Part shown: piece by piece, positions 59,201-62,200 of the stretch
Numbering within the stretch: position 1 is the first letter of the stretch
Layout: every line of letters starts with the position of its first letter
Assembly: GCF_964204645.1 (NCBI RefSeq)
Contig: NC_134026.1
Coordinates: 23,904,150 to 23,968,149, forward strand
Origin: Tubulanus polymorphus
Taxonomy: Eukaryota > Animalia > Nemertea
Length of the DNA stretch: 64,000 bases
Reading direction: 5' to 3'
The notes under the pieces: generated by a model
Database searches by the model: none
What the model was told of the DNA's origin: nothing
The model's input: only the letters and a program-made list of their open reading frames with translations
Position numbers and translations under genes: made by a program

Positions 59201-62200
59201 AGTAGTTCCTGTGAATGGGTGCACGGCCAATTTTTTGGAGCAGTCTGGTGGAAAAGTACACTTGTGAGCCCCTTAACTGAACAGTGGAAAATGTGGTAGT
59301 CTTAGTCAAATTTGATGATGGCGTCTCCTCAAATCGAATTACGCAAAGCCTTCATGCCTTTGCTTCTAAAGAGCGATTAATGGCCGAATGTTTCGAATAC
59401 CCAATTCTACAAGTGTTGATGACGTATATATGTATGTTTTTCTGTACATGACTCGACAGTGAGTCGCACTCCAGGTTCTATGCCTCACAAGTAACATTGG
59501 CATTCGAGTACCTGCATTCCCTAGACCTCATATATAGAGATTTGAAACCGGAAAATATTCTGATAGACAATCAAGGCTACCTGAAAGTAAGTCTAGAATT
59601 GTGCAGCGGCACCAATGCGGGTCTGTTGGTTGGTTTGTAGAGCTGTTAATATGCACTTCTCTGGTGACACATAATGTTTTACTGTTGCGCTTTATCTGCA
59701 GGGTCTGTTGTCAGGTCAGCCCCACCAGGGTTCATTTGGTACATGTTTTGTTGTATATGTCATTATTGTATGATTGTTCGTCGGCTAGTGGTATTAACTT
59801 AATATTGAAAAATATATGGAGAAGAATCATGTATTCGTCGTATGAAACTAATATGATACGTCACAATCCCAGTTTGTGAAAGTGTCCAGTCTTGTGTGTG
59901 CTTAAATCATCTTGTGACATATGAACAATCATGACATTTCGCAGCAGAAATTCATACTACATGGGTCACCAGGAGCCTTTTAGTTTTTACTAAAAATAAA
60001 AAAAACATTTATTGCCTTTTTCTCTTTTGATTAACCAGCCAGTCAATGACCGTTATGACGATTTGCTGCTGCCCGTTGCTGCTAGTGTTAGTTACAACTT
60101 CTACTAACTGATAATTTATTAACCGATTTTTCTTTACCACAGCGAGCCTCATTCCCGGTTTTATGCAGCCCAAATTGTTTTGGCATTTGAATACCTCCAC
60201 TCATTGGATCTCATATACAGAGACTTAAAACCGGAGAACTTGCTTATAGATTCCATGGGTTATATTAAAGTAAGTATGCGGTGTGACACAGGTACTATTA
60301 GGCTGTCCTCCTGTGTAGAGCCCACCTTTCTTAGACCCTCTCAACTGCGCGCTAGCTAACTAGATCTGTAGTGGTTTTCCTTATTTCATCTATGTTGTAT
60401 TTTTCCTTCTGTCCACAGTGAAGTACATTCCAGGTTCTACGCAGCACAGATTGTTTTGACTTTTGAGTACCTCCATCATTTTGATATAATATACAGAGAT
60501 TTAAAGCCAGAAAACCTCCTGATAGATAATCACGGCTATCTAAAGGTAAAATGTAACGAAATCAGGTGGCCGAACCGTGAGAACATCTAATCCTGCTTCA
60601 AGCGCTTTTTATGGGTGGTGGAACTTGGATCAAGAACTTGCATGCACGTTTATTCTAACCAATCCAGCCACGAATGAATTCGGTTATGGATGAATTTTGA
60701 AAGGCGTGTCGTTCTGAATATTCAATAACTGCGCAAAAGAATTTATTTAGCAATTTCATGTATGCATGCATGTTTGCTTAAAAATTGATAAACGGTTTAT
60801 GCCGATACGCAATCTGGTTTAATGTTTGGGAGGTGATTTGTTGGAATTCTAAAAAATAAACTTACCTGTTATGATTTGCTGCTAATTTTAATCGGGTGAT
60901 GAAAATAACCATGATCTGATGATGAACCTATGACTTCAGTGAACAATGCCGAGATATTTTTATTCATATATGAAAATCAATAATAATCTATGATTTATCA
61001 ATTTCCGACAATTTTCCGTTTTCATATTAATCAATCATAGAATGTTTGTACGTTTACTATAAATGGAAATCATCATGAAATTAACCAAATCGTCGCAAAA
61101 TGTATGGCCAAAAATCTCTGTTCGCTAAATCAGTGCCTCGTTCAACTTTAAATTGTCCAATCCGTCGTTCGTAACTACTATAATTATTGTCTATGTCTGC
61201 TTGCAGCAACCGTGCATGTCATATTCCTGCTCTTTATGATGAGAAATCGTAATGATCAGTGTATAAGGTTACACCAACATGCCATAATTTAATCGGATGA
61301 ATCGGATGAAATTTCATACGCAAAAACTTTGCGTAACACATTTTTAAAAGAATCTAGATTTTTGTTTAAAAACGCGGAATGTGATCTGATGGTTGCTAGA
61401 ACTACGAAAGCAAAAAGGTTACCGCGTTTACTCTGGTAGTGTGCTTCTCCTGTGTTGTCAAGCTTATTTTATTTATCTGTGTGACTACCTTCGGTAGCTA
61501 GTAATTACCGCACTGCAGCAGACAAGGGTTCCGTGTTACCTAGCAACAAGATAATAATCACAGTATCACGTAACATTGATTGTGATGTGTGCGCTAATAT
61601 TTGACTTCAGCATGTCTTGATCTCTTCGTATTTCTTACCTGCGAACGAAAAGTGAAAGTGGCTGTTCGTCGTCGTCGTTGCTATCTAATGCGCAGTGATT
61701 ATGGCGAGTGTTGCTCCTGGCGTCTTTGTCTTCTTCATTCACCAATTTCTGTCCATCACTGCGAAATAGTAGAATGTTCTAATTCGATGAGTTACTTATT
61801 ATTTACACGTAGTTCTTGTTCATTTATTGTTCTTCTTTATTTACCCTAAATGGTTCTATTTTACAGAAAATAAGTATGTACTAGATAATCTATCCATTTT
61901 CATCTTTCGGTTACTATGTTCTATAAAAAGGCTCTATTAGGGTTATAAATTTGAATGAAATTGTCCATTGTATAGAAAAAGTAGATATGATTTTATTAAA
62001 ATTGATGCTATAATAATTTAAATATAAATACATTTTCGTGATAGATCCGGTATTTAGATATCTAATATAACAGGAATATGACCTTCCTTGGTTTGTTATG
62101 GGCGATCCATAATCATGAAATTGTGCCTTGCTGCTGTTTCTTGATTTGATTATTAAAGCAACTTAATGGCTTGAACATTCTACAATAGTAGGTTTGATAT

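What the first reader, a model, noticed from the sequence alone, without database searches (positions are those of the whole stretch)
59460..60545. Three-way mutually exclusive cassette for the PKA catalytic-loop exon
Seen: three tandem 127-nt exons with identical phase (2 to 0), intact splice signals, all retaining YRDLKPEN. They differ pairwise at 8-10 of 42 residues, with many synonymous changes, which suggests purifying selection on each copy. Since 127 = 3n+1, only single inclusion preserves the frame (0, 2 or 3 copies frameshift). Variation falls in helix E (SQVT vs AQIV), the pre-catalytic segment (HSLDL vs HHFDI), the residue equivalent to C-spine L172 (I in 6a) and the b7-b8 turn. Established: Aplysia PKA-C has two alternative versions of this region (A1/A2), and vertebrate genes have one. 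Inference: an expanded three-option switch that tunes substrate or R-subunit affinity of PKA at its active site. None of the three exons appears in the ORF track.
Basis: partly seen in the sequence, partly recalled or inferred. Interest (0 to 1): 0.88.

Follow-up and report, generated by a model that had tools for sequence, protein, structure and literature searches.

The report
Three swappable exons in worm PKA
A ribbon-worm gene for the signalling enzyme protein kinase A carries three intact copies of the exon around its catalytic loop, only one of which fits per message, so one gene likely makes three versions of an enzyme core that vertebrates keep fixed, extending the two-way choice reported in the sea slug Aplysia.

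Summary
Confirmed. Three 127-nt exons (59460, 60143, 60419) each complete the frame alone; zero, two or three copies give early stops. The ten-exon model with 6c equals the RefSeq PKA-C protein of the nemertean Tubulanus polymorphus. Spliced contigs from two studies join exon 5 to 6c, and 6c to exon 7; use of 6a and 6b here is inferred. All three copies are under purifying selection and stand in the same order in a second organism, where 6b shows no listed change. RefSeq isoforms of Lineus longissimus, a distant nemertean, carry three matching versions, so the trio is old, not a recent expansion. Molluscs show two versions (16 of 28 groups, none three); annelid records fit an older three-exon cluster, with weak tree support. 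The catalytic loop is invariant, so tuning is likely indirect (helix E, C-spine), not at the substrate or R-subunit contacts named in the papers read. A downstream RNA docking site is a weak candidate. Ten paper searches found no description of three copies; this scan noted duplicated PKA exon pairs in two other genomes. Verdict: new variant of a known kind, interest 0.45.

The parts
50566..50611 (+). alternative first coding exon of PKA-C (N-terminus of RefSeq isoform X2)
   Evidence: exact match to the N-terminus of P0130 / XP_074643618.1, followed by GT
56290..56332 (+). first coding exon, canonical MGN-type N-terminus (RefSeq isoform X3)
   Evidence: exact match to P0129; loose ends of spliced contigs in X5 and X10 read this exon before exon 2
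57088..57149 (+). exon 2 (62 nt)
   Evidence: AG/GT ends; joint to exon 3 in X5 and X10
57443..57571 (+). exon 3 (129 nt)
58142..58240 (+). exon 4 (99 nt)
58434..58516 (+). exon 5 (83 nt), donor that feeds the cluster
   Evidence: joint skipping 1902 nt, GT..AG, to 6c in X5 and X10
59460..59586 (+). exon 6a (Ile at position 172, Ser148-Val150-Thr151); splicing not seen in this species
   Evidence: 4 listed changes in organism B, 2 silent and 2 replacing; matching version in Lineus X2/X5/X10
59925..59973 (+). short conserved island in the 6a-6b intron; candidate selector for 6a
   Evidence: aligned island in organism B (joints); predicted duplex with 61430-61454, -24.4 kcal/mol; weak against controls
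60143..60269 (+). exon 6b (canonical animal type); splicing not seen in this species
   Evidence: no listed change in organism B; 1 residue from Priapulus, 2 from Lineus X1
60270..60418 (+). 149-nt 6b-6c intron, largely conserved; single branch-point-like CTAAC 87 nt from the 6b donor
60419..60545 (+). exon 6c (Thr153, His159-Phe160, Ile162); the copy seen spliced
   Evidence: joints 5-6c in X5 and X10, 6c-7 in X5; exon-5-like and exon-7-like loose ends on both sides in X8; 42 of 42 residues match RefSeq X2 and X3
61428..61747 (+). conserved 320-nt non-coding block downstream of the cluster; its first 30 nt are the candidate docking site
   Evidence: 29 other letters in organism B, with unalignable flanks; duplex scans
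62246..62341 (+). exon 7 (96 nt, DFG motif), acceptor after the cluster
   Evidence: joint skipping 1700 nt, GT..AG, in X5
62429..62551 (+). exon 8 (123 nt)
62641..62805 (+). exon 9 (165 nt)
62893..63018 (+). exon 10 coding part with stop

Best explanation
This nemertean PKA catalytic-subunit gene holds its catalytic-loop exon in three intact tandem copies of which only one keeps the reading frame; the third copy is seen spliced in, and the other two are likely used as well, which would give three kinase cores with the same catalytic loop but different packing around it. Shown: the anatomy, the frame rule, selection on each copy, splicing of 6c, the same order in a second organism, and three matching versions among annotated Lineus isoforms. 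Inferred: that 6a and 6b are spliced in Tubulanus, probably in fewer cells or stages. Exon choice: wrong products carry early stops and would be removed by nonsense-mediated decay (inferred). The primary choice is likely made by the conserved intron blocks; the mechanism I would test first is a downstream docking site (61428-61457) that pairs with the island at 59940-59966 to loop out 6b and 6c (giving 6a), or with the 6c acceptor (giving 6b), and leaves 6c as default when unpaired (about 30% likely). Protein effect (inferred): the 12 variable positions lie in helix E, the segment before the catalytic loop, C-spine position 172 and the turn between strands 7 and 8, so they would shift stability, ATP handling or dynamics indirectly. 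Origin (inferred, about 55%): an a-b-c cluster older than nemerteans, of which the mollusc pair is a reduced form.
For: Frame test 3 of 3 single copies open, 5 of 5 other combinations stop early. Selection: 0 of 20000 random placements match, for each pair. Ten-exon model with 6c equals XP_074643619.1 letter for letter. Spliced contigs: 5-6c in X5 and X10 (one sample), 6c-7 in X5, and 6c between exon-5-like and exon-7-like ends in X8, another study; each holds one copy only. Organism B: 8 listed changes in 381 nt of the three exons against 47 in 649 nt of constitutive-exon pieces, Fisher p 0.00026, p 0.02 if all 6 unplaced changes are counted against the cluster. Lineus: 8 isoforms read carry 3 versions, and X2 and X3 differ from X1 only within this exon. 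Tree of 44 peptides: 6c with Lineus X3 at 83.7/95, 6a inside a group with Lineus X2 and Owenia at 83.5/89 or lower nodes; one clade of all six nemertean exons is rejected, p-AU 0.036. Order in read-through records: a-type before b-type in P0003-P0006, b-type before c-type in P0007, P0121, P0122, P0124. Splice sites of 6a and 6b are as close to consensus as those of constitutive exons.
Against: Both Tubulanus RefSeq isoforms seen (X2, X3) use 6c; other isoforms were not among the 15 listed of 59 cluster members. In organism B, 2 of 4 listed changes in 6a and 3 of 4 in 6c replace residues, so low change partly reflects RNA-level constraint, not only protein selection. 6a is nearer to Lineus X1 (6 differences) than to its proposed orthologue X2 (8). 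Ile172 also occurs in sponge (Geodia) and springtail (Folsomia) sequences, so the a-type mark can arise independently. A clade of the three Tubulanus exons alone is not rejected, p-AU 0.148. Nemertean 6c joins the mollusc-annelid c-group only in the quick tree, support 67, and not in the fuller search. The docking site reaches 3 of 76 (sum of three best partners) and 10 of 76 (second-best partner) under the fair control, and no compensatory change was seen in any of 22 duplexes. No Lineus genomic DNA was read, so exon order there is untested.
Confidence: 0.82

Rival explanations
1. Only 6c is a working coding exon in Tubulanus; 6a and 6b are kept as RNA elements or are recently silenced.
For: All spliced contigs laid that cover the cluster use 6c and two join across 6a and 6b; both RefSeq isoforms seen use 6c; no listed change at silent sites of 6b points to RNA-level constraint.
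Against: Silent sites between copies are saturated while frames and catalytic residues are intact; consensus splice sites; Lineus isoforms with a-like and b-like versions are annotated.
Confidence: 0.1
2. The trio is nemertean only: a two-exon lophotrochozoan cassette (b plus c) gained a third copy in early nemerteans, and a-like exons of annelids and flatworms are separate duplications that converged.
For: No mollusc group with three versions, 0 of 28 read; no named annelid with three versions in my sample (Owenia 2, Capitella, Helobdella, Perinereis 1 each); Ile172 recurs in sponge and springtail; PKA exons duplicate repeatedly, e.g. two exon-5 ends within decapod species; 42 columns resolve little.
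Against: a-type exons of Tubulanus, Lineus, Owenia, Perinereis, a cestode and six unnamed records form one group (support 83.5/89 includes it with weaker neighbours, 78.5/79 alone; 87); annelids collectively show a, b and c types; the a-type stands first in 4 read-through records.
Confidence: 0.4
3. Exclusion needs no RNA pairing: splicing factors bound to the conserved intron blocks choose the exon and nonsense-mediated decay clears double inclusion.
For: All wrong combinations stop early; best duplex among conserved blocks is no better than shuffles, 5 of 39; in human clusters 60% have lengths not divisible by three and many are thought to be protein-regulated (passages of PMC5740500).
Against: The first 30 nt of the downstream block have as best partners the 6c acceptor, the isolated conserved island and the 6a acceptor, 0 of 164 own shuffles, picked after the scan; 6c as the seen form fits the proximal-default rule for downstream docking sites (passage of PMC4691838).
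Confidence: 0.55
4. Assembly artefact or local segmental duplication without function.
For: None found beyond the tandem layout.
Against: Copies differ at 37-41 of 127 nt and flanking introns are unrelated; the same order stands in one contig of organism B.
Confidence: 0.01

Closest known systems
Aplysia californica PKA catalytic subunit with two internal alternative segments (Beushausen et al. 1988 Neuron 1:853; Beushausen et al. 1992 PNAS 89:1641). Only the reference listings were seen; neither text was read. The labels A1/A2 and their position are recalled.
   Same: Same gene and same 42-residue exon: gastropod and bivalve records carry two versions of it; Aplysia NP_001191420 carries the second-position type, which shares His159 and Ile162 with 6c.
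   Different: Three copies, not two; the Ile172 a-type was not seen in any of 28 mollusc groups; 6c has Thr153-Phe154 and Phe160 where the mollusc type has Val-Leu and Leu, and orthology of 6c with it is only weakly supported.
Lineus longissimus RefSeq PKA-C isoforms XP_064624381-XP_064624391 (automated annotation)
   Same: Three versions of this exon, each resembling one Tubulanus copy. The three-way choice is therefore already in a public annotation.
   Different: Not described in any paper found; Lineus also has two versions of the C-terminal exons 8-10, not seen in this window.
Homologous mutually exclusive exons in general (PMC5740500 passages; PMC7954323 abstract) and docking-site clusters such as Dscam, srp and 14-3-3xi (PMC4691838 passages; PMC6071210 abstract)
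   Same: Tandem homologous exons of equal length and phase, one per transcript, fold kept, conserved flanking introns.
   Different: Here the swapped exon holds the catalytic loop of a kinase; competing RNA pairing is not shown.
Vertebrate PRKACA / PRKACB
   Same: 350-residue kinase aligned end to end with human C-alpha, ten coding exons, alternative first exons.
   Different: Active vertebrate isoforms are invariant over exons 2-10 (passage of PMC6143667).

Membership tests
PKA catalytic subunit (C-alpha/C-beta family) | Full-length similarity to solved PKA-C and a protein kinase domain | tested here: met
   E 3.5e-208 over 1-350 with chain 3agl_A; Pkinase 247.7 bits; equals XP_074643619.1
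PKA catalytic subunit (C-alpha/C-beta family) | Ten coding exons, nine introns, as in chordates and Daphnia (PMC3625193 passages) | tested here: met
   Ten-exon model with AG/GT ends; exon sizes were not compared one by one with the human gene
PKA catalytic subunit (C-alpha/C-beta family) | cAMP-regulated kinase activity of each isoform | not testable with these tools
   needs recombinant proteins
Homologous mutually exclusive exon cluster | Tandem homologous exons of like length, same phase, intact splice sites | tested here: met
Homologous mutually exclusive exon cluster | Each exon alone yields a full protein; joint inclusion does not | tested here: met
   3 of 3 single forms open; 4 of 4 multi-copy forms and the skip stop early
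Homologous mutually exclusive exon cluster | Junction evidence for every member in this species | tested here: inconclusive
   6c shown; only assembled contigs were laid, which drop rare forms; three versions annotated in Lineus
Docking-site / selector splicing (Dscam, srp, 14-3-3xi type) | One conserved intron element complementary to several competing sites | tested here: inconclusive
   candidate 61428-61457: 0 of 164 own shuffles, 3 of 76 and 10 of 76 under the fair control
Docking-site / selector splicing (Dscam, srp, 14-3-3xi type) | Compensatory base changes across species | tested here: inconclusive
   0 compensatory pairs in 22 duplexes, one comparison species, change lists cut at 40 rows
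Steric-interference exclusion | Branch point under 50 nt from the upstream donor (PMC5740500) | tested here: not met
   only branch-like motif in the 149-nt intron is 87 nt from the 6b donor; 6a-6b intron is 556 nt
Orthologue of the mollusc (Aplysia-type) two-exon cassette | Same exon of the same gene duplicated in tandem | tested here: met
   two copies read through in Pinctada, Mytilus, Mya, Tegillarca, Biomphalaria models
Orthologue of the mollusc (Aplysia-type) two-exon cassette | Copy-to-copy orthology (6c with the mollusc second copy) | tested here: inconclusive
   joined at support 67 in the quick tree, apart in the fuller search

The most novel reading that the evidence does not exclude
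The ancestor of molluscs, annelids and nemerteans already switched the catalytic-loop exon of PKA three ways (a, b, c in this order); nemerteans kept all three, molluscs lost one, so the Aplysia pair is a remnant, and the choice is made by one downstream docking element at 61428-61457 pairing with competing upstream sites. The ancestral trio alone is about 55% likely; with the docking mechanism about 20%.
Probability: 0.2. Interest if true: 0.68.

Novelty: new variant of a known kind. Interest (0 to 1): 0.45.

Why it matters
PKA-C is the textbook kinase and its core is fixed in vertebrates. A three-way switch of the catalytic-loop exon, kept in two distant nemertean lineages and perhaps older, is a natural experiment on which residues around an unchanged catalytic loop can be varied and to what end. 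It puts the Aplysia neuronal isoform pair into an evolutionary frame and gives a compact (3.7 kb) three-exon cluster with mapped conserved intron blocks for minigene work on exon choice outside insects and vertebrates. The kind of event is known, and the isoforms already sit unremarked in automated annotation, which limits surprise.

Tried and rejected
No whole genome was held. No RNA holder listed on record; runs X5, X8 and X10 are taken as RNA only because their contigs skip introns. No contig with 6a or 6b junctions among runs X5, X8, X9, X10, X11: contigs drop rare forms, so this is no evidence. X8 and X9 share a contig and longest record and may be one data set; X5 and X10 are one sample. 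Metagenome scan: 0 of 80 loci kept (of 570 matches) held two copies; most are short or distant kinases, so it says nothing on distribution. A search restricted to exons with these exact splice boundaries was not run, so tandem copies in that collection are not counted. The strongest predicted duplex among conserved blocks (59616-59640 with 60345-60370, -30.0) is rejected: 8 pairs broken and 3 deleted of 24 in organism B. Duplexes 58949-58976/59247-59274 and 58997-59022/60047-60073 lie outside blocks aligned in organism B and were not pursued. The island 60746-60779 has no partner above shuffles, 22 of 132. Steric exclusion is not met. Two-copy hits in Oppiella, Ostertagia and Ixodes (P0001, P0002, P0236) repeat long stretches and look like model errors, not exon clusters. 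The single-sequence structure model failed (pLDDT 37); the alignment model (pLDDT 73) gave secondary structure only, so contacts were not computed. Papers not held: the 1992 PNAS paper, PMC2142252, PMC3545707. Paper searches listed no description of a three-copy PKA cluster; passages of PMC3625193, PMC2724707, PMC12608923 and PMC13425070 shown to me speak only of 5-prime variation. Subscription papers, including the Aplysia and mussel biochemistry, are outside the library; no supplements were read.

Full report
Observation. The three exons are present as described: 59460-59586, 60143-60269 and 60419-60545, each 127 nt between CAG and GT. With exons 3-5 and 7-10, each single copy gives an open frame to the natural stop, while the skip and all four multi-copy forms stop early. 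The copies differ at 8, 10 and 8 of 42 residues and at 41, 38 and 37 of 127 bases; silent sites are saturated and replacement sites differ by 13-14%. Random placement of as many base changes never gave so few residue changes with an open frame (0 of 20000 for each pair). No fourth copy was found in the window.

Gene and organism. A search with 6c found two RefSeq proteins of Tubulanus polymorphus with 42 of 42 identity, a palaeonemertean. The ten-exon window model with 6c translates letter for letter to XP_074643619.1; a second first exon at 50566 gives the N-terminus of XP_074643618.1. The protein aligns end to end with human PKA C-alpha, and residue numbers in this exon equal the human mature numbers (140-181). 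That the window comes from this species is inferred from that match.

Splicing. Contigs of runs X5 and X10 (one sample) skip 1902 nt from exon 5 to 6c with GT..AG ends; X5 also skips 1700 nt from 6c to exon 7 and the other introns listed. A contig of X8 (another study) lies on 6c with exon-5-like and exon-7-like loose ends. So 6c is spliced as a single internal exon. Use of 6a and 6b in this species was not seen and is inferred; only contigs were laid, and both RefSeq isoforms that I saw use 6c (15 of 59 cluster members listed).

Second organism. One 4416-nt contig of run X6 (organism B) holds 6a, 6b, 6c and exons 7-10 in order, with introns. Listed changes: 4 in 6a, 0 in 6b, 4 in 6c, against 47 in 649 nt of five constitutive-exon pieces that include a few intron bases (p 0.00026; p 0.02 if 6 unplaced changes near piece ends are all charged to the cluster). 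Five of the 8 changes replace residues. Intron blocks are also kept: about 110 nt after 6a, an island at 59925-59973, the 6b-6c intron, 60746-60779 and 61428-61747. This is the pattern expected of regulated alternative exons.

Distribution. Eight Lineus longissimus isoforms carry three versions of this exon, and X2 and X3 differ from X1 only here. One has Ser148, Val150 and Ile172 like 6a, one is canonical like 6b, one has Thr153, His159, Phe160 and Ile162 like 6c. Lineus DNA was not read, so order there is untested. Among 28 mollusc groups read, 16 show two versions, 12 one, none three (sampling of isoforms is incomplete). Owenia shows an a-like and a c-like version, Helobdella b-like, Capitella and the bryozoan Watersipora c-like. 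In records that read through two copies, the Ile172 type precedes the canonical type (P0003-P0006) and the canonical type precedes the mollusc second type (P0007, P0121, P0122, P0124). A tree of 44 peptides over 42 columns joins 6c with Lineus X3 (83.7/95), groups 11 a-like exons (78.5/79) and 11 mollusc-annelid-bryozoan c-like exons (97/99). One clade of the six nemertean exons is rejected (p-AU 0.036), one clade of the three Tubulanus exons is not (0.148), and 6c joins the wider c-group only in the quick tree at 67. Against deep orthology: 6a is nearer to Lineus X1 than X2 by count (6 and 8) and Ile172 occurs in sponge and springtail sequences. The rows were chosen by hand from about 400 proteins then held. 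I conclude that the trio predates the split of these two nemertean lineages (likely) and may be ancestral to a wider group (about even).

How the choice is made. Frame: all wrong products stop early and would be decay targets (decay is established knowledge, not tested). Steric exclusion is not met (criterion from PMC5740500). RNA pairing: the best duplex among conserved blocks is no better than shuffles (5 of 39) and is broken in organism B. The first 30 nt of the downstream block pair best with the 6c acceptor (-27.0), the isolated island (-24.2) and the 6a acceptor (-22.9), and less with 6b (-18.1); 0 of 164 shuffles of that piece reach the sum, but the piece was picked after the scan, and shuffling the whole block gives 3 of 76 and 10 of 76. 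No change is listed in these arms in organism B, but up to 2 unlisted changes may lie there, and unchanged pairs prove nothing. The layout would fit a downstream docking site with the nearest exon as default (passage of PMC4691838), which agrees with 6c being the form seen. I rate it a lead.

What the switch would do. The 12 variable positions are 141, 148, 150, 151, 153 (helix E, 140-158 in the model), 159, 160, 162, 172, 176, 177 and 180. Residues 164-171 are invariant. Leu172 is a C-spine residue (PMC6143667 passage). The residues named for R-subunit binding and substrate recognition in PMC3625193 lie outside the exon. The effect is therefore likely indirect. That helix E lines the myristate pocket and packs on the N-terminal helix is recalled, not checked; papers tried for it were not held.

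Comparison with what is known. Alternative splicing of Aplysia PKA-C is in print since 1988; I saw only reference listings, and the A1/A2 labels are recalled. Homologous mutually exclusive exons are a well-known class (PMC5740500 passages; PMC7954323 and PMC6071210 abstracts). Passages of PKA surveys shown to me (PMC3625193, PMC12608923, PMC13425070, PMC2724707) discuss 5-prime variation and no internal cassette; I read none of them whole. Ten searches listed no paper on three copies. The scan's own notes hold two other genomes with duplicated PKA exon pairs (none by sequence); these are unchecked, though two exon-5 ends within decapod species appear in my data.

Verdict. A real, old, three-member mutually exclusive cluster in a nemertean PKA-C gene: a new variant of a known kind. 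Interest 0.45.

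Noticed in passing
window 57572-58141 (intron 3 of PKA-C): A near-perfect foldback element fills the intron (z -23, 0 of 100 shuffles). One contig of run X5 over 57646-57988 shows mostly A>G changes on the sense strand (17 A>G of 22 listed places in that run), which would fit A-to-I editing of the hairpin or another copy of a repeat; part of it has very high depth in organism B.
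   Followed up: partly
window 50566-50611 and 56290-56332: Two alternative first exons (acidic and MGN-type); with three exon-6 copies they could give six isoforms.
   Followed up: yes
window 61428-61747 and 60746-60779: Conserved non-coding blocks in the intron after 6c; most of the 320-nt block is unexplained. A local hairpin 61570-61594/61690-61714 is predicted with 20 pairs.
   Followed up: partly
run X8, contig over window 60417-60547: Labelled as the same organism but 9 other letters in 131 nt of 6c, so the label may cover a divergent lineage.
   Followed up: no
proteins P0212-P0224 (Lineus longissimus): Two versions of the whole C-terminal part (exons 8-10, 21 differences) besides three exon-6 versions and two N-termini.
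   Followed up: no
proteins P0277/P0280, P0279/P0283, P0438/P0443, P0436/P0444 (decapods): Two versions of the end of exon 5 within one species, i.e. another duplicated PKA exon in arthropods.
   Followed up: no
window 37303-38497 (+): Tektin gene exons (Pfam PF03148).
   Followed up: partly
window 21731-22177 (-): Frame with a W/D/E-rich start and G/R/N-rich repeats that recalls the N-terminus of vasa (from memory; no Pfam match).
   Followed up: no
window 14656-15795 (-): 379-codon open frame, lysine- and serine-rich, no Pfam match.
   Followed up: no
window 58514-59466 (exon 5/6 junction): Ser139, a known phosphorylation site (PMC3625193), is encoded across the junction, and residue 141 next to it differs in all three copies (Ser, Pro, Val).
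   Followed up: no
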